A DNA stretch of 64,000 nucleotides. Origin: Mizuhopecten yessoensis (taxonomy: Eukaryota). The translations under genes and the position numbers were made by a program. Shown here in pieces: positions 1,620 through 58,156 of the stretch. How positions within the stretch are numbered: the stretch's first letter is position 1; each line of letters begins with the position of its first letter. The DNA is taken from contig NW_018406560.1 in assembly GCF_002113885.1 (NCBI RefSeq), forward strand, positions 361,713-425,712, given 5' to 3'. The notes beneath the pieces are model-generated. The model ran no database searches. It was given only the letters and a program-made list of their open reading frames with translations, and had not been told where the DNA came from.

Positions 1620-1627
1620 GTGAGTAT

Positions 1628-2215
1628 CCTTGGTAATGGTCATGTGACATGTCTCCTTGGTAATGGTCATGTGACATGTCTCCATGGTAATGGTCATATG
1701 ACATGTCTCCGTGGAAACAGTCATGTTGCATGTCTCCGTGGTAATGGTCATGTGACATGTGTCCTTGGTAATGGTTCTATGAAATGTCTCCTTGGTAATG
1801 GTCATGTGACATGTCTCTTTGGTAATGGTCATATGACATGTCTCCGTGGAAACAGTCATGTTGCATGTTTCCGTGGTAACGGTCATGTGACATGTGTCCT
1901 TGGTAATGGTTTTATGAAATGTCTCCTTGGTAATGGTCATGTGACATGTCTTCTTGGTAATGGTCATGTGACATGTCTCCAAGGAAACAGTCATGTTGCA
2001 TGTCTCTGTGGTAATGGTCATGTGACATGTCTCCAAGGAAACAGTCATGTTGCATGTCTCCATGGTAATGGTCGTGTGACATATCTCTGTGGTAAAGGTC
2101 ATGTGACATGTCTCTATGGTAATGGTCATGTGACATGTCTCCTTGCTACGTCATGTTGCATGTCTTTGTGGTAACGGTAATGTAAAATGTCTCCATGGAA
2201 TAATCATGTGACATG
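1628..2215. repeat. Minisatellite, 27-bp unit (CCTTGGTAATGGTCATGTGACATGTCT)
   Basis: About 21 copies starting 8 nt after the exon donor; source of the GNGHVTCLL repeat ORFs. Confidence 0.95.
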
Positions 2216-2519
2216 TCTACTAGGTACGATGTACAAGTATGAATCAAGATTTTTTATTTTCTTCTTTTGCCAAAAACATTGTAAAAAAATACCTAGTGAA
2301 AAAAACACCAGTTTTATTATAGGTTGTTAGATGGGAGAGAGTGGAATTGCAAACACATACTTGATATGCAGAACAAAACCTTTGGTTATAAAAGAGATCT
2401 TTATATATATATGAGTATAGAGGAGAGGGAATACTCAGGCTCAATTTTCATTTGTCAACAGTTTTAGAATTCAAGTTTTTTTTTATAGTTTCAGATCTCA
2501 GATCAGACTTCATTTTCAA

Positions 2520-3156
2520 ACCTCATGTCTGATTTCAGTTACAGATCCTAGGTCTGATTTCAGTTACAGACCTCAGGTCTGATTTCAGCTACAGATCTCA
2601 GGTCTGATTTCAGCTACAGACCTCAGGTCTGATTTCAGTTACAGATCTCAGGTCCGATTTCAGCTACAGATCTCAGGTCTGATTTCAGCTACAGACCTCA
2701 GGTCTGATTCCAGTTACAGACCTCAGGTCTGATTTCAGTTACAGACCTCAGGTCTGATTTCAGTTACAGACCTCAGGTCTGATTTCAGTTACAGACCTCA
2801 GGTCTGATTTCAGTTACAGACCTCAGGTCTGATTTCAGTTATAGATCTCAGGTCTGATTTCAGTTACAGACCGCAGGTCTGATTTCAGTTACAGATCTCA
2901 GGTCTGATTTCAGCTACAGATCTCAGGTCTGATTTCAGCTACAGACCTCAGGTCTGATTCCAGTTACAGATCTCAGGTCTGATTTCAGTTACAGACCTCA
3001 GGTCTGATTTCAGTTACAGATCTCAGGTCTGATTTCAGCTACAGACCTCAGGTCTGATTCCAGTTACAGATCTCAGGTCTGATTTCAGTTACAGATCTCA
3101 GGTCTGATTTCAGTTTCAGATCTTAGGTATGATTTCAGTTTCAGATCTTAGGTCTG
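2520..3156. repeat. Minisatellite, 25-bp unit (GGTCTGATTTCAGTTACAGACCTCA) with internal inverted repeat
   Basis: About 25 copies; GGTCTG/CAGACC arms. Confidence 0.95.
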
Positions 3157-5699: not shown

Positions 5700-8600
5700 C
5701 AGGATCCCAGTGATAGTCCTGGTGTTTGTGTACCCAGACTTCCAGTGACAGTCTGGGTGGTTGTGTACCCAGACTTCCAGTAATATTCCTGGTGGTTGTG
5801 TACCCAGACTCCCAATGATTGTCCTGGTGGTTGTGTACCAAGACTTCCAGTAATATTCCTGGTGGTTGTGTACCCAGACTCCGGGTGATAGTCCTGGTGG
5901 TTGTGTATCAAGACTTCCAGTAATATTCCAGGTGGTTGTGTACCCAGACTCCCAGTGATAGTCCTGGAGGTTGTGTACCCAGACTCCCAGTGATAGTCCT
6001 GGTTGCTGGGAACCCAGACTCCCCATGATAGTCCTGGTGGTTGTGTACCCAGACCTGCAGTGATAATCCAGGTGGTTGTGTAGCCAGACTTCCAGTGATA
6101 GTCCTGGTGGCTGTGTACCCAGACTCCCAGTGATAGTTCTGGTGGTTGTGTACATGGACTCCCAGTGATAGTCCTGGTTGTTGTGTACCAAGACATCCAG
6201 TAATAGTCCTGGTGGTTGTGTACCCAGACTCCCAGTGATAGTCCTGGTGGTTGTGTACCCAGAACTCCAGTGATAGTCCTGGTGGTTGTGTACTCAGACT
6301 ACCATTGATAGGCCTGGTGGTTTATGTACCCATACTTTCAGTGATAGTCCTGGAAGTTGTGTACCAAGACATCCAGTAATAGTCCTGGTGGCTGTGTACC
6401 AAGACCTCCAGTGATAGTCCTGGTGGTTGTGTACCCAATCTCCCAGTGATAGTCCTGGTGACTGTGTACCCATACTCCCAGTGATAGTCCTGGTGGTTGT
6501 ATACCCAGACTCCCAGTGATAGTACTGGTAGTTGTGTACCCAGACCTCCAGTGATAATCTGGTAGGTTGTGTACCCAGACTCCCAGTGATAGTCCTGGTT
6601 GTTATGTACCCAGACCTCCAGTGATAATCCGGGTGGTTGTGTACCCAGACTCCCAGTGATAGTCCTGGTGGTTGTGTACCCAGACTCCCAGTAATAGTCC
6701 TGGTGGCTGTGTACCCAGACTCCCAGTGATAGTCCTGGTGGCTGTGTACCCAGACTCCCAGTGATAGTCCTGGTGGCTGTGTACCAAGACTCCCAGTGAT
6801 AGTCCTGGTGGCTGTGTACCCAGACTCCCAGTGATAGTACTGGTAGTTGTGCACCCAGACTTCTAGTGATAGTCCTGGTGGTTGTGTACCCAGACTCCCA
6901 GTGATAGCACTGGTGGCTGTGTACCCAGACTTCCAGTGATAGTCCTGGTGGTTGTGTACCCAGACCTCCAGTGATAGTCCTGGTGGTTGTGTACCCAGAC
7001 TCCCCGTAATAGTCCTTGTGGCTGTGTACCCAGGCTTCCAGTGATAGTACTGGTAGTTGTGTACAAAACTGTCAGTGATAGTCCTGGTGGTTGTGTACCC
7101 AGACTCCCAGTGATAGTCCTGGTGGTTGTGTACCCAGACCTGCATTGATAATCCGGGTGGTTGTGTACCAAGACTTTCAGTGATAGTCCTGGTGGTTGTG
7201 TACACGGATAGTCCTGGTGGTTGTGTACCCAATCTCCCAGTGAGAGTCCTGGTGGCTGTGTACCCAGACTTCCAGTGATAATCCTTTTGGCTTTGTACCC
7301 AGACTTCCAGTGATAGGCCTGGTGGTTGTGTTCCCAGAATTCCATTGATAGTCCTGGTGGCTGTGTACACAGACTTCCAGTGATAGTACTGGTGGCTTTG
7401 TACCCAGTCTCCCCGTGATAGTACTGGTAGTTGTGTACCTAGTCCTGGTGGTTGTGTACCCAATCTCCCAGTGAGAGTCCTGGTGGCTGTGTACCCAGCC
7501 TACCAGTGATAGTCCGGGTGGTTGTGTACCCAGTCTCCCAGGGATAGTCCTGGTGGCTGTGTAACCAGATTCCCAGAGATAGTTCTGGTGGCTGTGTACC
7601 CAGCTTCCCAGTAGACTCCCAGTGATAGTCCTGGTGGTTGAGTGCCCAGACTTCCAGTGATAGTCCTGGTGACTGTGTACCCAGACTCCCAAAATTGTCC
7701 TGGTGGTTGTGTACCCAGACATCCAGTGATAGTCCTGGTGACTGTGTACCCAGACTCCTAAAATTGTCCTGGTGGTTGTGTACCCAGATCCCTAGTGATA
7801 GTCCTGGTGGTTGTGTACCAAGACTCCCAGTGATAGTACTGGTAGTTGTGCACCCAGACTTCTAGTGATAGTCCTGGTGACTGTGTACCCAGACTCCTAA
7901 AATTGTCCTGGTGGTTGTGTACCCAGACCTCCAGTGATAGTTCTGGTGGTTGTGTACCCAGACTCCCATTGATAGTCCTGGTGGCAGTGTACCCAGACTT
8001 CCAGTGATAGGCCTGGTGGTTGTGTTCCCAGAATTCCATTGATAGTCCTGGTGGCTGTGTACACAGACTTCCAGTGATAGTACTGGTAGTCCTGGTTGCT
8101 GGGTGCCCAGACTCCCCATGATAGTCCTGGTGGTTGTGTACACGGATTCCCAGTGATAATCCTGGTTGTTGTGTACCATAGACATCCAGTGATAGTCCTG
8201 GTGGTTGTGTACCCAGACCTCCAGTGATAATCCGGGTGGTTGTGTACCCAGACTCCCATTGATAGTCCTGGTGGCTGTGTACTTAGACTTCCAGTGATAG
8301 TCCTGGTCACTGTGTCCCCAGACTCACAATGGTACCCAGACCTCCAGTGATAATCCAGGTGGTTGTGTAGCCAGACTTCCAGTGATAGTACTGGTAGTCC
8401 TGGTTGCTGGGTGCCCAGACTCCCCATGATAGTCCTGGTGGTTGTGTACCAAGACTCCCAGTGATAGTCCTGGTGGCTGTGTCCCCAGACTTCCAGTGAT
8501 AGTACTAGTGGCTTTGTACCCAGTCTCCCAGAGACCTGCATTGATAATCCGGGTGGTTGAGTACCAAGACTTTCAGTGATAGTCCTGGTGGCTGTGTACT

Positions 8601-11600
8601 TAGACTTCCAGTGATAGTCCTGGTGGTTGGGTACCCAGACCTGCATTGATAATCCGGGTGGTTGAGTACCAAGACTTTCAGTGATAGTCCTGCTGGTTGT
8701 GTACACGGATTCCCAGTGATAATCCTGGTTGTTGTGTACCATAGACATCCAGTGATAGTCCTGGTGACTGTGTACCCAGACTCCCAATGCTTGTCCTTGT
8801 GGTTGTGTACCCAGACTCCCAGTGATAGTCATGGTGGTTGTGTACCCAGTCTCCCAGTGATAGTCCTGGTGGCTGTGTAACCAGATTCCCAGTGATAGTT
8901 CTGGTGGCTGTGTACCCAGATTCCCAGTGATAATCCGGGTGGTTGTGTACCCAGACTCCCAGTGATAGTCCTGGTTGATGTGTACCCAGACCTCCAGTGA
9001 CAGTCCAGATGGTTGTGTACCCAGACTTCTTGTGATAGTCCTGGTGGCTGTGTCTACATACCTCCAGAGACAGTCCGGGTGGTTGTGTACCCAGACTTCC
9101 AGTGATAGTCCTGATGGTTGTGTACCCAGTCTCCCTGTGATAGTCCTGATGGTTGTGTACCCAGACTCCCAGTGATAGTCCTGGTGGTTGTGTACCCAGT
9201 CTCCCAGTGATAGTCCTGGTGGTTGTGTACCCAGATTCCCAGTGATAGTTCTGGTGGCTGTGTACCCAGACTTCCAGTGCTAGTCCTGGTGTTTGTGTAC
9301 CCAGACTTCCAGTGATAATCCTTTTGGCTTTGTACCCAGACTTCCAGTGATAGTCCTGGTGACTGTGTACCCAGACTCCCAATGATTGTCCTTGTGGTTG
9401 TGTACCCAGACTCCCAGTGATAGTCCTGGTGACTGTGTACCCAGACTTCCAGTGATAGTACTGGTGGTTGTGTACCCAGGCCTGCAGTGATAATCTGGGT
9501 GGTTGTGTACACGGTTGTGTACTCAGACTTCCAGACATAGTCCTTGTGGTTGTGTAATCCGACACCCAGTGAGTGTCCTGATGGTTGTGTACCCTGACTT
9601 CAGGTGATAGTCCAACTGGTTGTGTACCCAGACTTCCAGTGATAGTCCTGGTGACTGTGTACCCAGACTCCCAAAATTGTCCTGGTGGTTGTGTACCCAG
9701 ATTTCCAGTGATAGTCATGGTGGTTGTGTACCCAGACTTCTAGTGATAGTCCTGGTGACTGTGTACCCAGACTCCCAGTGATAGGCCTGGTGGTTGTGTT
9801 CCCAGAATTCCATTGATAGTCCTGGTGGCTGTGTACCCAGACTTCCAGTGATAGTCCTGGTGGTTGTGTACCCAGACTTCCAGTGAAAGTCCTGGTTGTT
9901 GTGTACCCAGACTTCCAGTGATAGTCCTGGTGGCTTTGTACCCAGTCTCCCAGTGATAGTACTGGTAGTTGTGTATCCAGTCTCCCAGTGATAGGCCTGG
10001 TGGTTGTGTACCCATAGTCCCATTGAGAGTCCTGGTGGCTGTGTACCCAGACTTCCAGTGATAGTACTGGTGGCTTTGTACCCAGTCTCCCAGTGATAGT
10101 ACTGGTAGTTGTGTACCCAGTCTCCCAGTGATAGTCCTGGTGGTTGTGTACCCAGACTTCTAGTGATAGTCCTGGTGACTGTGTACCCAGACTCCCAGTG
10201 ATAGGCCTGGTGGTTGTGTACCCAGACTCCCATTGATAGTCCTGGTGGCTGTGTACCCAGACTTCCAGTGATAGTCCTGGTGGTTGTGTACCCAGACTTC
10301 CAGTGATAGTCCTGGTGGTTGTGTACCCAGACTTCCAGTGATAGTCCTGGTGGTTGTGTACCCAGACTTCCAGTGATAGTCCTGGTGGTTGTGTACCCAG
10401 ACTTCCAGTGATAGTCCTGGTGGTTGTGTACCCAGACTTCCAGTGATAGTCCTGGTGGTTGTGTACCCAGACTTCCAGTGATAGTCCTGGTGGTTGTGTA
10501 CCCAGACTTCCAGTGATAGTCCTGGTGGTTGTGTACCCAGACTTCCAGTGATAGTCCTGGTGGTTGTGTACCCAGACTTCCAGTGATAGTCCTGGTGGTT
10601 GTGTACCCAGACTTCCAGTGATAGTCCTGGTGGTTGTGTACCCAGACTTCCAGTGATAGTCCTGGTGGTTGTGTACCCAGACTTCCAGTGATAGTCCTGG
10701 TGGTTGTGTACCCAGACTTCCAGTGATAGTCCTGGTGGTTGTGTACCCAGACTTCCAGTGATAGTCCTGGTGGTTGTGTACCCAGACTTCCAGTGATAGT
10801 CCTGGTGGTTGTGTACCCAGACTTCCAGTGATAGTCCTGGTGGTTGTGTACCCAGACCCCCAGTGATAGTCCTGGTGGTTGTGTACCCAGACTTCCAGTG
10901 ATAGTCCTGGTGGTTGTGTACCCAGACCTCCAGTGATAGTCCTGGTGGTTGTGTACCCAGACTTCCAGTGATAGTCCTGGTGGTTGTGTACCCAGACCTC
11001 CAGTGATAGTCCTGGTGGTTGTGTACCCAGACTTCCAGTGATAGTCCTGGTGGTTGTGTACCCAGACCTCCAGTGATAGTCCTGGTGGTTGTGTACCCAG
11101 ACTTCCAGTGATAGTCCTGGTGGTTGTGTACCCAGACCTCCAGTGATAGTCCTGGTGGTTGTGTACCCAGACTTCCAGTGATAGTCCTGGTGGTTGTGTA
11201 CCCAGACCTCCAGTGATAGTCCTGGTGGTTGTGTACCCAGACTTCCAGTGATAGTCCTGGTGGTTGTGTACCCAGACCTCCAGTGATAGTCCTGGTGGTT
11301 GTGTACCCAGACTTCCAGTGATAGTCCTGGTGGTTGTGTACCCAGACCTCCAGTGATAGTCCTGGTGGTTGTGTACCCAGACTTCCAGTGATAGTCCTGG
11401 TGGTTGTGTACCCAGACCTCCAGTGATAGTCCTGGTGGTTGTGTACCCAGACTTCCAGTGATAGTCCTGGTGGTTGTGTACCCAGACCTCCAGTGATAGT
11501 CCTGGTGGTTGTGTACCCAGACTTCCAGTGATAGTCCTGGTGGTTGTGTACCCAGACCTCCAGTGATAGTCCTGGTGGTTGTGTACCCAGACTTCCAGTG

Positions 11601-12420
11601 ATAGTCCTGGTGGTTGTGTACCCAGACCTCCAGTGATAGTCCTGGTGGTTGTGTACCCAGACTTCCAGTGATAGTCCTGGTGGTTGTGTACCCAGACCTC
11701 CAGTGATAGTCCTGGTGGTTGTGTACCCAGACTTCCAGTGATAGTCCTGGTGGTTGTGTACCCAGACCTCCAGTGATAGTCCTGGTGGTTGTGTACCCAG
11801 ACTTCCAGTGATAGTCCTGGTGGTTGTGTACCCAGACCTCCAGTGATAGTCCTGGTGGTTGTGTACCCAGACTTCCAGTGATAGTCCTGGTGGTTGTGTA
11901 CCCAGACCTCCAGTGATAGTCCTGGTGGTTGTGTACCCAGACTTCCAGTGATAGTCCTGGTGGTTGTGTACCCAGACCTCCAGTGATAGTCCTGGTGGTT
12001 GTGTACCCAGACTTCCAGTGATAGTCCTGGTGGTTGTGTACCCAGACCTCCAGTGATAGTCCTGGTGGTTGTGTACCCAGACTTCCAGTGATAGTCCTGG
12101 TGGTTGTGTACCCAGACCTCCAGTGATAGTCCTGGTGGTTGTGTACCCAGACTTTCAGTGATAGTCCTGGTGGTTGTGTACCCAGACTCCCAGTGATAGT
12201 CCTCGTGGTTGTGTATCCAGACTTCCAGTGATAATCCTGGTGGTTGTGTACCCAGACTCCCAGTGATAATCCTGGTGGCTTTTTACCCAGACTTCCAGTG
12301 ATAGTCCTTGTGGCTTTGTACCCAGACTTCCAGTGATGATCCTTGTGGCTTTGTACCCAGACTTCCAGTGATAGTCCTGGTGGCTTTGTACTATGACATT
12401 CATTTTTAAATCCTGGTGGC
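5700..12420. repeat. Large intronic minisatellite, 35-bp unit (ACTTCCAGTGATAGTCCTGGTGGTTGTGTACCCAG), ~6.7 kb
   Basis: Degenerate flanks, near-perfect core ~10250-12150, alternating ACTTCC/ACCTCC 70-bp dimer from ~10890. Confidence 0.97.
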
Positions 12421-52290: not shown

Positions 52291-52447
52291 ATGTCTGTAG
52301 AAGTGGCTATCAAGAATGGCGCCCAGACGATTGGGGAGGGACCACACTGGGACGTTGGGACAGGGACCCTCTTGTACGTCGACATCATGGAAGGGGACGT
52401 TCACCGGTGGAGTCCCTCAACTGGTGTTCATGAGAAAGTTCACCTAG
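52291..52447 (+). CDS. RGN: RGN coding exon 1
   Basis: [21 protein letters not shown]...HL, G|gtaaga. Confidence 0.93.
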
Positions 52448-55400
52448 GTAAGAAATATAAATATGGATCAGTAAACTTTGAGTGACACATATGTTGCATA
52501 TTTTGGGTGATCTGGTAGTACAGTGGATAGCGCACTCATCCATCACAAAGACTGCCATGATCTGATTTCCCTGATAGGTCACTTTCCAGATCACAAGGGT
52601 TTTTCTCCAGGTACTCCAGTTTCCTTCCACATTAAGACCTCCTACATGATTTCATCTGAGCCAAGAAAAGTGATCAATATTATTAAGGAAAACTTACTTC
52701 ATAATTGATCATATGTGTTGCAATAATATAGCTGTAATGATGTACTTCAAATGATAAATATTAAAAAAAACAATCAAATGATTAAATACAGTTTTCCCAA
52801 TTATATGTAACATGCATGTTTCTAGGGGGACAGGCTGTGGACGGTCTCTGTAGATCACACATTTTCTGTCGAGATATCCTCTAAAGAATACACTCCCTGT
52901 TTCTTTACTAGAAAATCTCATAATTACCATGCATGTTCTTCCCCTTATATCGATTTTGCTTTTAAGCTTACAGATCTGGTCCAAAGGGCTAGGGGCGAGC
53001 TTATGACATACCATGGCTTCCATTGTCGATCTGTCACCAATTCCTTCAAACGACTTCTTCTTCACTGCTGAATGGAATTCGACTAAAAACATCTGTAGGT
53101 GGTGGGGATTTAAAATTGCAAAAATAAAAGGGACTTGTTCCCTGCGTAACTGGGCTAGGGGACTGGCCTTATCCCTAAGATCTTATTTGCAATAGAACTA
53201 TCATTGAAAATTCTTTTCCATGATTGCTTAAATATCCAGTCGAGTGATACAGGCCCTCTTGGCCTCTTATTTTGATTTGCCAGAAAGCCCAGTGACCCTG
53301 ATAGTGCCAAATAAGAATGGAGGCTATATCATTGCTCAGAACAGAAGTATATGTCACCTAGACTGGGATACAGCAAAACTTACAACCATACATACTGTGG
53401 AGGAGGGAACAAGTAACAGGTTCAACGATGGGAAATGTGACAGGAATGGAAGACTTTGGGCAGGTAAATATTGCATACTGTTGCGGAGGGAACAAGTAAC
53501 AGGTTCAACGATGGGAAATATGACAGGAATGGAAGACTTTGGGCAGGTAATATTACATACTGTGGTGGAGGGAACAAGTAACAGGTTCAACGATGGGAAA
53601 TATGACAGGAATGGAAGACTTTGGGCAGGTAATATTACATGCTGTTGTGGAGGGAACAAGTAACAGGTTCAACGATGGAAAATGTGACAGGAATGGAAGA
53701 CTTTGGGCAGGTAATATTACATACTGTGGTGGAGGGAACAAGTAACAGGTTCAACGATGGGAAATGTGACAGGAATGGAAGACTTTGTGCAGGTAAATAT
53801 TACATACTGTTGCGGAGGGAACAAGGAACAGGTTCAACGATGGGAAATGCGACAGGAATGGAAGACTTTATTTTAAATTTGGGCAGGTAAAGATTATATA
53901 CTGTTGAGGAGGGAACAAGTAACATGGTTCTCTTGAATGACATTGAGTCAGATATACTAATATGTTGCCTGTAGCTTAATTTAAGGTTACAAGTTAAGTG
54001 ATGGAGACCCATTGGGCCTCTTGTTGTTGATTGTAGGAACAATGGGCGTTGAGTTGAAAGACAGTGTGGAGATAGAGTGTGGGACCTTGTACAGTGTAGA
54101 CAGTTCAGGGGTCAAGGGTCACCAAGACAAGGTCACCATTTCCAACGGCATAGCCTGGTCGGGGGACAACCAGACAATGTATTTCATTGACTCCCCGCTG
54201 AAGCAGATCTTCGCCTTTGATTATGATGCAGAAACTGGAAATATCAGTAAGATGGTTTGTTTGAAATAATAATTCATATTGAAGTTTGGCTTGAAACAAC
54301 ATCAGAGACATAAGTATTATTAGCTCACCTGGCCCGAAGCATGGCATCCATCATATGAATATCGTCATTATGTCTGACCGTCTGTCCGTCCAGTGTCAAT
54401 TTTGTAGCTCACTTAGCCCGAACTACTACTAGTCCTTAACGGCTCAGTTGATTTTGGTGTGGAACATCATTGGCCAAATGGTTCTCATTTGTGTATAAAC
54501 AGGTGGTATGGTATGGCCCAATAGGGGAAATAGAGAAAAATATTTCTCCTTCTGTACAAATGAAGAGATTTAAGCAAAATGTAATTTGGAGCATCCTTAG
54601 CATAAAAAGATTCAATTTTGTATAAACTGAGGCTGTGACCCCACCCCCCGTTTGGGAAGAGGGGTGGGCCCGAATTCAATTCAATGACAAAATGAAAGGT
54701 AAGTACACAAAACATTCTTTCTCTTGTTAAATTGGGAACCATGTACATTAGCTAGTGTTTGTTGGCATCCCTGATATCCAGAGGCTATGCTCTCTACACC
54801 CCTGGAACATGTCATAGCGAAATTGAAGGCACGAAGATGGCTGTTTGATTGGTCTCAGGTAAAAAAAAACAATCGCTAGGCTGATACCTGTCCTTTGAAG
54901 ATTACAAAGGAGAGACGTCTGACTTCAAAGCCTGTCAATTTTTACCGTTATGTGACTGCAAGATTCTTTTGATGTACTTCAAAGGATCAAACTAGTCATC
55001 TCGTCACAAGGTGGCACCCACTGAGCCTTCAATTTTGCTATGACATATTCCAGGGGTGCAGAGAGCAAAAGTGAGCGTTACCCCTGGACATCGAGGATGG
55101 TCTGTTGGAGGGTTAGTTATAAATGCCCTTTGGCCGTGGCATTCACATGTTAGTGTTATTGGTAATAAGCTTACCTGCTTAGTCACTGGCAAGATATATA
55201 CGTATCTATAGACAACCGTTGGTGATTCTATTGTAATCACCAAATAAATATATCTTCATTGCTCAAGTGTCTAGTTAGGGATTTGAGTCTTATTCTTTAA
55301 TAATAATAATTTGAGGTTCTTATAAACCGCTTTATCACAACCTAGTTTGTAGGTCGTCACAAAGCGGTTCACAAATTATTATCAGTGGTTATAGGGCCTT

Positions 55401-58156
55401 TGCAACCAGCCAATATCTTTCTCAACTCCCTGGGGAGCATACAGCCAGTGCTGCCATTTCGGCGCTCACAGCTAGCTAGCATTCAACAATTCTAGCACTG
55501 CCCAACTACGTACTCATTTACAGCTGAGTAGACTGGAACAAGCGGAATAAAGTATCTTGCTCAAGGATACAACACAGTGCCGTGACGTGACTCGAACCCG
55601 CAACCGTTCAGTCACGAGCCAGGCGTCCTACCACTAGACTACCGTGCCTCCATTCTTTGCATTAGACGGGGAATTAGATCAGACCACGGTTTAGTAGATT
55701 GACTGAGTTAGCTATAAGTGCGACTCGGCCAAATAGTACAGCAATATGGCTAAGCGGACATTCTAGACGCGTTTGTCCCGAACAGCAATACTAGCCTCTC
55801 TGGTCGTCCTGCGTTAGTTCAGCATCTCTAGCAGGGGGTTATCGTTTGGTCACGTTCTGGACACTGTTCGTTCTCCATTTGGTTACAAAAATTTGGATAT
55901 TGTACATAGTTATAACTGTACATTGTAGCTGTTTCTCTAAGGGCCAAAGATTCGGTCAGTATAAATAGCTTAATCATGTCAAAATCAGTTAGCACAAAAT
56001 GTACAAAGAATGATAACAGATTAGCAGTATTTGAGATACTAGACAATCGCAGTCCCATTCCCATCATATCTTATAAAATAGTTATAAAAAGTTATAAAAT
56101 AGTTATAAAAAAGTTATAAAATAGTTATAAAAATGTCGGGTGGAAAGGGATTATTATACGGCATATCAAATTAACTTTTACTTTGAGTGAATTAAACTTC
56201 AACAAAAAAATCAGAAGAAAACACTTTTAATTTTTATCCCCACACACAATGAAATCGGCCAGAGATATTGAAGCAGAGGGTGGTCGGGTGGGGCAGTGGG
56301 TAGCGTACTTGCCTTTCACCAAGGCGGCCGAGGTAAAATAGATTCCCCGATTGGACGTGAAAATGTATAGGGTCACCTGGCCGACTACGTGGGTTTTCTC
56401 CAGGTACTCCGCTTCCTCCCACAATAACAACCCCGCGCACTAATTATAACATCCTTGCCAATTAACAAGAGTGATTAGTATAAGTTGAAATAACTTGTTT
56501 CATAGTTGTTGTAAAGTAAGTTTATATTTTAAACATAGTTTTGTCTATCCTTTAATGCAGATTAAGAAGAATTTTCAGTTCATGTCTGGGTACCTCTATA
56601 ATCAGTTCTAGATGATAATTACTTGCATGAATGATGCAGTTATGGCCCCTTACCCGTATACATGCCGAGGACGTTGAAGTTTACCAAAAATTAATGCTTC
56701 AGTGAAAAATGCAGATTTCTTGATATTCCCTTCTTTATCTCTTCAAGAAGAGCTCTTCAAGACGTCTATATCTGGGTGACTGTAGGTGCCACAAGAGTAA
56801 TCCTGCAATAAACCTCGGTGATTAAGGTCATGTTGCTCTGTACATGTTGCAGCTGCTGAACTTGACCTAAATTTGTGCTTGATTGACTTGGTTCGGAAGA
56901 AATTACCCACATTTTTGTGATCATGTATTGTGTCAACAAGAATTTTAAGTCCATATCTGGGTAACTAGAAGTGCTACATATATTATGCTTTAAAGCAATA
57001 TGGTTTTAAACTAAATATTTTATTTAAATAGTTTCTAAATGTAGTTAAGAAATGCAGCAATTAAATGTGCCATGTTAAGTACTTTGTACATGTTTATAAT
57101 ATATACCTTGCCATGGACAATTGTCTAGAATGTAATATCACAACTTGGACATGTAATCCAGGTTTGTCAAAAATACAGAGGTTACCATGGTCTTAAATTT
57201 AGCAGAAACATTTCAACATCTTTTCTCATTAACTCATTTACCCCTGAAATTTCACAATGAACTATTCCATCCTTTGAATTGGAATAGTTCAAATGTGTCT
57301 TCAGGGGTGAATGAGTTAACATACCATAAGAACTAGGTGAGTAATACAGAACCGACTGGCATCTTGTATTTTGATATTCTAAGTTTGTAACACAAAGGCT
57401 GTCTGTATCTACAATAATTCTCTTCTGCTACCAATACAAACAAGTCTTCCTTATATGGACTTTGTTGCTGTTGCCTAGGTAACAGAAGAGTTGCTGTACA
57501 TGTAGCCTACGGCTGTCCAGACGGTATGACGATTGACACGGAGGATAAGTTATGGGTTGCCTGTTTTTCAGCTGGACGAGTTGTAAGATATGACCCTGAG
57601 ACAGGTAAGTAGAAAGATGTTACCTTGAGTTAATGTCTTCAAATTGTAAAATGTGTGGAAATATCTTTTTTTAAATTATTTGAAGAAATTCCCTAATACA
57701 AACACCTTTTTCTGATTACTGTAGGTGGAAAAAAAATTTCTACTACAAATTTGGGGGAACCACGATACCTTTCTATATGTAGCAGGAATGTCTTTGTGAA
57801 AAATGTTTTATTCCAGATTTAAATTTAGTCACAGTTGGTATTTGACACAAAAAGACAGTCTTATTTACCTATTGCTACAAAATTTAGCTCTTGATTATAA
57901 TTAGATCATCTGTTTTTGTACAGGTAAAGAGCTAAGAGTGGTTGAGATCCCAAGCAAGCGGATGACATCTTGTTGTTTTGGGGGAGATAACTTAGAGGAT
58001 CTCTATGTGACCTCATGTGCCAAACATGTATCTGTGGAGAGCCTCACTTTGGAGGAGGTGCTCAAACAGGAACCACTGGCTGGATCTGTATTCAGAGTAA
58101 CAGGACTTGGGGTCAGAGGTCACGCAGCTAATAAATTTGGTGCTGTGGTCACCTGA
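52291..58156 (+). CDS. RGN: Regucalcin / SMP30 (gluconolactonase family), join(52291..52447,53284..53463,54037..54246,57479..57604,57924..58156), 301 aa
   Basis: 906 nt in frame, four phase-1 GT-AG introns; motifs [69 protein letters not shown]; metal-ligand Glu/Asn/Asp equivalents present. Confidence 0.96.
52505..52705 (+). mobile_element. Degenerate V-domain SINE
   Basis: tRNA-like head and GGGTTTTTCTCCAGGTACTCCAGTTTCCTTCCAC V-domain motif; similar to 56278. Confidence 0.6.
53284..53463 (+). CDS. RGN: RGN coding exon 2
   Basis: ttgccag|AA AGC; ends [17 protein letters not shown]|gtaaat. Confidence 0.94.
53391..53925 (+). repeat. 82-83-bp tandem repeat made of the RGN exon 2 3' end plus its splice donor (6 full copies and 1 partial)
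   Basis: Copies start at 53391, 53474, 53556, 53638, 53720, 53803, 53897; CAG|GTAA at 53464, 53547, 53629, 53711, 53793, 53887. Confidence 0.95.
54037..54246 (+). CDS. RGN: RGN coding exon 3
   Basis: ttgtag|GA ACA ATG; ISNGIAWS...[12 protein letters not shown]; A|gtaaga. Confidence 0.95.
54318..54728 (+). mobile_element. pearl/HINE-type element fragment
   Basis: TTATTAGCTCACCTGGCCCGAAG start, GTCTGTCCGTCC microsatellite, typical core repeat remnants. Confidence 0.6.
54766..55099. mobile_element. MITE with ~65-bp terminal inverted repeats
   Basis: TGCTCTCTACACCCCTGGAACATGTCATAGCGAAATTGAAGGC versus GCCTTCAATTTTGCTATGACATATTCCAGGGGTGCAGAGAGCA. Confidence 0.75.
55299..55651 (-). mobile_element. 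Full-length tRNA-derived CORE-type SINE with (ATT)n tail and 7-bp TSD
   Basis: - strand A box TAGTCTAGTGG, B box GGTTCGAGTC, CORE-like TCCTTGAGCAAGATACTTTA...CAGCTGTAAATGAGTAC; ATTCTTT at 55292-55298 and 55652-55658. Confidence 0.85.
56278..56525 (+). mobile_element. V-domain SINE
   Basis: GGGTGGTCGGGTGGGGCAGTGGGTAGCG head; GTGGGTTTTCTCCAGGTACTCCGCTTCCTCCCAC V-domain motif. Confidence 0.7.
57229..57319. mobile_element. TTAA-flanked MITE, family B
   Basis: TTAA-CTCATTTACCCCTGAA...TTCAGGGGTGAATGAG-TTAA, 91 bp. Confidence 0.88.
57479..57604 (+). CDS. RGN: RGN coding exon 4 (not in the ORF track)
   Basis: ttgcctag|GT AAC; [43 protein letters not shown]|gtaagt. Confidence 0.95.
57924..58156 (+). 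CDS. RGN: RGN coding exon 5 (terminal)
   Basis: tttgtacag|GT AAA; [17 protein letters not shown]...[18 protein letters not shown]. Confidence 0.95.

What the first reader, a model, noticed from the sequence alone, without database searches (positions are those of the whole stretch)
53391..53925. Regucalcin exon end and its 5' splice site amplified into a tandem array of six competing donors
Seen: the last 73 nt of coding exon 2 ([25 protein letters not shown], containing the conserved active-site-region Asn) plus ~10 nt of intron is repeated 6 times and a partial seventh, each full copy keeping GCAG|GTAA. Donor offsets from the first are +83, +165, +247, +329 and +423 nt. The third donor (+165, GT at 53629) is in frame with no intervening stop (ORF 53244-53663), so it would add 55 aa including a second NRFNDGK..GRLWAG segment. 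The others frameshift or include the stop at 53661-53663. Inference: a VNTR born at an exon/intron junction that could create isoforms or NMD-mediated dosage tuning, with copy-number alleles affecting splicing.
Basis: partly seen in the sequence, partly recalled or inferred. Interest (0 to 1): 0.7.

Follow-up and report, generated by a model that had tools for sequence, protein, structure and literature searches.

The report
Repeated splice donor in scallop regucalcin
In a scallop regucalcin gene the end of exon 2 and its splice signal are repeated so that six look-alike signals stand in a row, but the assembled transcripts that join this exon to the next use the first signal, so this is likely a harmless example of a repeat type ("mirage") already known from lancelet and human genes.

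Summary
The array is real: an 82-83-nt unit (last 73 nt of exon 2 plus 9-10 nt of intron), six units and a partial seventh, six CAG|GTAA donors at the stated offsets. DNA contigs of two studies hold it. The gene is Yesso scallop regucalcin; its database protein (301 aa) equals the first-donor product. Four of five putative RNA runs show the exon 2-3 joint, all from the first donor; none shows another donor (contigs drop rare forms). The first donor ties for best U1 match; the in-frame third is weaker and its unit has only replacement changes. This is a 'mirage' minisatellite, as in human F7 and ABCA7 and lancelet genes. It is ordinary here: 4 of 48 boundaries in six paralogues and 4 of 148 sampled kinase/ALDH exon ends carry one, the latter at background rate. 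The scan noted the same kind earlier in this genome (SOUL, ANKLE2) and others. One run shows excess repeat depth that a silent SNP or a splicing leak would both fit. Verdict: new member of a known kind, low interest.

The parts
52291..52447 (+). Regucalcin coding exon 1 (ATG to donor)
   Evidence: Pfam SGL PF08450; RNA joint 52447|53284 in 4 of 4 runs
53284..53463 (+). Exon 2 (180 nt); its last 73 nt are the exonic part of unit 1
   Evidence: RNA joints at both ends; SGL; match to human and mouse regucalcin
53391..53925 (+). Exon-end/5' splice site minisatellite: six units of 83, 82, 82, 82, 83 and 94 nt and a partial seventh
   Evidence: present in DNA contigs X2 and X4
53464..53465 (+). Donor 1, the one seen in use (10 of 11 U1 matches)
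   Evidence: joint 53463|54037 in X11, X12, X13, X15
53547..53548 (+). Pseudo-donor 2 (+83, frameshift, 146 aa; 8 of 11 U1 matches)
   Evidence: no joint seen
53629..53630 (+). Pseudo-donor 3 (+165, in frame, would give 356 aa; 8 of 11 U1 matches)
   Evidence: no joint and no database protein seen
53661..53663 (+). TAA that ends read-through for donors 4-6 (178 aa)
53711..53712 (+). Pseudo-donor 4 (+247; 8 of 11)
53793..53794 (+). Pseudo-donor 5 (+329; 10 of 11)
53887..53888 (+). Pseudo-donor 6 (+423; 9 of 11)
54037..54246 (+). Exon 3
   Evidence: RNA joints; SGL
57479..57604 (+). Exon 4
   Evidence: RNA joints; SGL
57924..58156 (+). Exon 5, coding part to the stop
   Evidence: RNA joint; five exons translate to the 301-aa P0001

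Best explanation
This is a 'mirage' minisatellite: an 82-83-nt piece spanning the end of regucalcin exon 2 and its splice donor is repeated into intron 2, the assembled transcripts splice at the first donor, and the five extra donors are likely near-silent, so the array is likely neutral. Shown: the array, its six donors, its presence in other animals' DNA, first-donor splicing, and a normal 301-aa protein. Inferred: it arose by one tandem duplication (slippage or unequal exchange) and grew by ordinary minisatellite turnover, as many arrays in this genome do. Inferred from the human F7 experiments: the most upstream functional donor wins, helped here by donor 1 being as strong as or stronger than the others. 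Inferred: any small leak (about 2% for the second donor in human ABCA7) mostly carries premature stops 318-562 nt upstream of the last junction and would be removed by NMD.
For: Joint 53463|54037 in 4 of 4 runs of four studies; in 3 of these (X12, X13, X15) one contig runs from the start of exon 2 into exon 3 with consecutive record positions, so no extra unit. The narrow re-lay lists one joint in all, again donor 1. P0001 (XP_021356244.1 and XP_021356245.1) is letter for letter the donor-1 product. 0 of 8 hits cover the extended exon; 0 of 11 fetched proteins have two R[FL]NDG motifs. U1 matches 10, 8, 8, 8, 10, 9 of 11. The in-frame unit u3 differs from the exon by 2 replacement and 0 silent changes; u2-u5 together show 8 replacement and 3 silent changes. 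Tandem arrays cover about 13% of sampled flanks; junction-spanning arrays at 4 of 148 kinase/ALDH exon ends against a background array-edge rate of 3.5% (p = 0.82). Precedent: F7 (PMC1557585), lancelet mirages (PMC3087553; PMC3902484).
Against: All runs are Logan contigs, which drop rare forms, so minor donors would be missed; 154 lesser joints were not shown. Only X15 is on record as RNA (X11-X13 are guessed, though spliced at all four introns). X14 gave no exon 2-3 joint. In X11 the repeat loop has depth 31.3 against 2.5 for the intron (ratio 12.5; 3.0-4.7 in X2, X4, X14), which could be read-through. Donor 5 is as good a U1 match as donor 1. Six of seven regucalcin genes carry some junction-derived array, more than the kinase sample would suggest (4 of 48 against 4 of 148, Fisher p = 0.10).
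Confidence: 0.8

Rival explanations
1. Leaky, allele-dependent donor ladder: in some haplotypes a sizeable share of transcripts reads through to downstream donors and is degraded by NMD, so array make-up or length tunes regucalcin dose.
For: X11 loop contig at depth 31.3 against intron 2.5 and spliced mRNA 85.2; its unit is the 83-nt type with the stronger donor. Unit variants differ between runs (T>C at the 53438 position in X11 and X14, not in X2 or X4). ABCA7 shows use of the second donor of such a VNTR (PMC5954066).
Against: A heterozygous silent T/C site in the exon copy fits the X11 depths equally (about 54 + 47 mRNA, loop 12.5), as would a longer allele. X13 shows loop 4.6 against intron 4.2, and X12 and X15 show no contig over the first unit junction at 53473. 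In ABCA7 the one-unit retention was 2 +/- 1% and did not change with VNTR size. In F7 only the first donor is used.
Confidence: 0.13
2. Protein isoform: donor 3 yields a 356-aa regucalcin with a second RFNDG strand segment, kept for a function.
For: The frame is open to donor 3 in this haplotype; the insertion point lies just before the lid-loop region described for SMP30 (PMC3551927).
Against: No joint, no database protein. Donor 3 is among the weakest. 30 of the 55 added residues are read out of frame from u2. u3 has only replacement changes. The open frame depends on an 83-nt unit followed by an 82-nt unit; the X11 loop is 83 nt, and three 83-nt units would pass through the frame holding the unit's TAA (inference).
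Confidence: 0.04
3. Assembly artefact or wrong copy number.
For: The assembly is fragmented (82,659 contigs) and no laid contig spans the array, so the exact count is unproven.
Against: Units differ from each other; independent DNA runs hold the unit-to-unit junction at 3.0 and 4.7 times flank depth, X4's shared node at 5.9 times and X14's summed variants at 5.4 times.
Confidence: 0.03

Closest known systems
Lancelet 'mirage' minisatellites (Adh3, globins BflGb6 and BflGb9, troponin C, PGBD5); PMC3087553 passages, PMC3902484 one passage; the original Adh3 paper PMC117041 was not held
   Same: Tandem duplications spanning an exon/intron boundary, few to many units, splice signals kept in many units, regular mRNA splicing reported; BflGb9 duplicates the 3' boundary of exon 2.
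   Different: Mollusc, not cephalochordate; 82-83-nt unit with 73 nt of exon; one downstream donor is in frame in this haplotype; length polymorphism and somatic instability not measured here.
Human F7 intron 7 37-bp VNTR (PMC1557585; abstract and outline, Discussion)
   Same: First unit holds the exon/intron junction; five to nine near-identical donors face one acceptor; only the most upstream is used although some pseudo-sites are in frame.
   Different: F7 pseudo-sites are identical to the authentic one and were tested by mutation; here three of five extra donors are weaker matches and nothing was tested at the bench.
Human ABCA7 intron 18 25-bp VNTR (PMC5954066; passages, section 21)
   Same: VNTR includes the donor; use of a later unit would frameshift and trigger NMD.
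   Different: ABCA7 arrays reach kilobases and change skipping of the next exon; its unit starts at the GT with no exon part. Here the array is about 0.5 kb and no splicing change is seen.
Regucalcin / SMP30 / gluconolactonase (Pfam PF08450; PDB 3g4e, 4gnb, 4gn7)
   Same: P0001 scores 276 bits against a cut-off of 26.3; exon 2 aligns with human and mouse regucalcin.
   Different: One of at least seven five-exon paralogues in this scallop; activity not tested.

Membership tests
Mirage minisatellite | Head-to-tail repeat whose unit spans an exon/intron boundary | tested here: met
   boundary fixed by RNA joint
Mirage minisatellite | Splice signal kept in many units | tested here: met
   6 of 6 full units have CAG|GTAA
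Mirage minisatellite | Regular mRNA is still made from the authentic site | tested here: met
   4 of 5 putative RNA runs show the donor-1 joint, 0 of 5 another; main form only, since contigs
Mirage minisatellite / VNTR | Copy number varies between haplotypes | tested here: inconclusive
   Loop/flank depth 3.0, 3.7, 4.7 and different unit variants between runs; contig depth is not copy number
Mirage minisatellite | Somatic length instability (reported for lancelet Adh3) | not testable with these tools
   needs single-molecule reads from one animal
F7-type first-donor selection | Downstream sites work when the first is removed, yet do not compete | not testable with these tools
   needs minigene mutation
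Splicing-QTL VNTR (ABCA7 type) | Array allele changes isoform ratios | tested here: inconclusive
   only the X11 depth excess, which a silent SNP also fits
Exonised in-frame repeat | Extended isoform on record and copies under coding constraint | tested here: not met
   0 of 8 hits cover the extended exon; u3 has 2 replacement, 0 silent changes (very few changes)
Regucalcin/SMP30 | PF08450 over the whole protein | tested here: met
   E 3.7e-82, profile positions 1-245 of 246

The most novel reading that the evidence does not exclude
The array is a natural splicing dial: haplotypes rich in 83-nt units with the stronger donor send a tenth or more of regucalcin transcripts to downstream donors and NMD, while 83+82 haplotypes can make a 356-aa enzyme with a duplicated active-site strand, so array alleles set enzyme dose or form in scallops.
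Probability: 0.08. Interest if true: 0.5.

Novelty: new member of a known kind. Interest (0 to 1): 0.14.

Why it matters
As found it matters little: one more splice-junction minisatellite tolerated by first-donor choice. Its modest value is as a sample of how common these are in a bivalve (about 3% of sampled exon ends, 95% interval 0.7-6.8%, likely a lower bound) and as a natural test bed for 5' splice-site choice, with six donors of graded strength in front of one acceptor. If later donors were used in an allele-dependent way it would be a splicing QTL in a farmed species and a visible step of exon extension. Searches returned no paper on such arrays in scallops or bivalves; that library lacks most subscription journals.

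Tried and rejected
Exon 2 starting at 53239, 53244 or 53252: rejected by the RNA joint at 53284. One search had an off-by-one start and gave nonsense; redone. Idea that the window's other arrays are junction-born: none of the TRF arrays lies at the ends of the three XK-related exons; arrays in 1-30000 could not be tied to exons, since two candidate frames gave no Pfam hit. First null for array frequency (mean 10.6) let array ends fall anywhere in a pseudo-exon and was unfair; replaced by equal 90-nt zones (7 of 148 observed, 5.2 expected; 4 of the 7 were true junction-spanning arrays on inspection, two of them copies of one duplicated gene). Dropped before counting: 13 AMP-binding loci and the 30 kinase loci returned automatically (mostly long single exons), 45 of the remaining 105 kinase hits (60 picked by eye for short open frames), and the C76747 stretches, which gave no tblastn hit. 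The orthologous intron in other scallops could not be fetched; only their proteins were compared (no insertion at this junction in 4 of 4). The 356-aa form was not folded. The Adh3 mirage paper was not held. PMC10078293 passages added nothing specific. No supplements were read.

Full report
Observation. TRF finds an 82-nt array at 53389-53869 (5.8 copies, 94% matches, score 846). Cutting it by hand gives six full units (83, 82, 82, 82, 83, 94 nt) from 53391 and a partial seventh. Each full unit holds CAG|GTAA, with GT at 53464, 53547, 53629, 53711, 53793 and 53887. Exon 2 starts at 53284, not 53244.

The gene. Five exons (52291-52447, 53284-53463, 54037-54246, 57479-57604, 57924-58156) each match Pfam SGL and translate to 301 aa. 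That is letter for letter P0001, labelled regucalcin-like of Mizuhopecten yessoensis, with two RefSeq accessions for the one protein. The repeated stretch encodes the NRFNDGK segment that aligns with human regucalcin; Arg101 and Asn103 there bind substrate analogues (PMC3551927, passages).

Is the array real? The DNA-like runs X2 and X4 hold the unit-to-unit junction as a loop contig at 3.0 and 4.7 times the flank depth; the mixed run X14 gives 3.7, and 5.4 for its summed variants. That fits about five or six units, though contig depth is no copy number and no contig spans the array. Unit variants differ between runs (a T>C change in X11 and X14, not in X2 or X4; a G>T change in X4), which points to allele turnover but does not measure length variation.

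Which donor is used? In 4 of 4 runs (four studies; X15 on record as RNA, the others guessed but spliced at all four introns) the joint is 53463|54037. In X12, X13 and X15 a single contig passes from the start of exon 2 into exon 3 without an extra unit. The narrow lay lists one joint, again donor 1 (X11); X14 has a spliced exon 1-2 contig but no exon 2-3 joint. So 4 of 5 putative RNA runs show donor 1 and 0 of 5 show another. The limit is real: contigs drop rare forms and 154 lesser joints were not shown. A search with the extended exon found 8 proteins, none covering it (the scallop protein 59%), and none of 11 fetched proteins has the motif twice. Four proteins of two other scallops have no insertion here.

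Why the first? A simple count of matches to the U1 5' end (consensus recalled) gives 10, 8, 8, 8, 10 and 9 of 11: donor 1 is first and tied for best, and the in-frame donor 3 is among the weakest. For human F7, where five to nine identical donors lie in a VNTR, only the most upstream is used, and mutation showed the others functional but uncompetitive (PMC1557585, abstract and Discussion). Lancelet 'mirages' have the same layout and were reported not to disturb splicing (PMC3087553 and PMC3902484, passages). In ABCA7 the second donor is used at 2 +/- 1%, independent of VNTR size, though skipping of the next exon grows with size (PMC5954066, section 21). Here four of the five extra donors give stops 318-562 nt before the last junction, so a leak would likely be cleared by NMD (inference). 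The copies show no coding constraint: u3 has two replacement changes and no silent one, and u2-u5 have 8 replacement and 3 silent changes (few changes, weak test).

The result against this reading. In X11 the loop contig has depth 31.3 while the intron has 2.5 and the spliced form 85.2: ratio 12.5, well above the other runs. Read-through to later donors or a longer allele would explain it. So would a heterozygous silent site in the exon copy, because 27 of the contig's 77 words lie wholly in the exon and carry that base; with a loop depth of 12.5 the two alleles come out at about 54 and 47, and X11's exon 1-2 contig has depth 52.2. X13 shows no excess (4.6 against 4.2). Contigs cannot separate these.

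How special is it? The window has 77 TRF rows, and arrays cover about 13% of sampled flanks. Six paralogues with the same five exons were fetched. None has this array at the exon-2 donor itself, but 4 of their 48 boundaries carry unrelated junction-spanning arrays: exon 3 acceptor (85 bp x 5.5), exon 1 donor (32 x 37.6), exon 3 donor (55 x 8.1) and exon 4 donor (44 bp). A fifth paralogue has a donor-like array about 540 nt inside intron 2 that matches its own exon-2 junction at 19 of 20 bases (0 of 1000 random windows score as high). In 74 kinase and ALDH exon hits, 7 of 148 ends had an array edge within a 90-nt zone against 5.2 expected from the flanks; 4 of these were true mirages, 2.7%, no different from background (p = 0.82). 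HMM hits can stop short of real exon ends, so this is a lower bound. The simplest reading is that minisatellites arise often in this genome and those that span a junction persist because the first donor (or last acceptor) still works. The higher rate in regucalcins (p = 0.10) is not established.

Earlier notes. The scan had flagged the same kind in this genome (SOUL, ANKLE2) and 13 times in at least 5 genomes. These are unchecked notes and are not counted as support; I had reached the F7 and mirage reading before opening them.

Verdict. A real, young exon-end/donor minisatellite in a scallop regucalcin gene; a new member of the known mirage kind; likely neutral (0.8). Searches found no paper on such arrays in bivalves, within a library that lacks most subscription journals. 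No supplements were read. Interest 0.14.

Noticed in passing
L029 8549-9015; L031 1026-2210; L032 6698-7144; L040 1604-1792 with L039 7442-8037: Four regucalcin paralogues carry their own, unrelated junction-spanning arrays at other boundaries (exon 3 acceptor, exon 1 donor, exon 3 donor, exon 4 donor). With the displaced array below and the focal one, six of seven regucalcin genes have one.
   Followed up: partly
L037 7389-7914 (minus strand): 50-54-bp array with a donor-like site in most units, about 540 nt inside intron 2 of a paralogue; its oldest unit matches that gene's exon-2 junction at 19 of 20 bases: likely a mirage pushed away from its exon by an insertion.
   Followed up: partly
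L117 1164-1538 (minus strand; G000:C3644): 44-bp mirage at a kinase exon end in which the first, exon-attached unit lacks the GT that the later units have. Either an assembly error or allele, or a case where a later donor must be used; 44 nt is not a multiple of three.
   Followed up: no
L144 1640-2055, L145 1640-2285, L148 1052-1471: Further donor mirages at kinase exons (44 bp in two copies of a duplicated gene; 145 bp, degenerate).
   Followed up: partly
G000:C3233:414000-473700: Cluster of four same-strand regucalcin paralogues on this contig, three more on C5267, C76738 and C890.
   Followed up: partly
window 50299-34713, minus strand: Three-exon XK-related gene (PF09815), head to head with regucalcin; its first intron holds several long minisatellites not tied to exon ends.
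   Followed up: partly
window 5707-12391: 6.7-kb array of a 35-bp unit (about 191 copies) with long stop-free frames on the minus strand; probably non-coding.
   Followed up: no
window 1627-2226 and 2487-3156: 27-bp and 25-bp arrays; the first starts a few bases after a possible donor at about 1621 that ends an exon-like frame with no Pfam hit.
   Followed up: no
window 54788-54830 and 55025-55067; 57229-57320: 43-nt inverted repeats around 194 nt (MITE-like) and a very high-copy short element in intron 3 of regucalcin (depths).
   Followed up: no
window 53408-53514 in run X11: Repeat-loop contig 12.5 times deeper than the intron in one RNA-like run; unexplained between a silent SNP, a longer allele and read-through.
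   Followed up: partly
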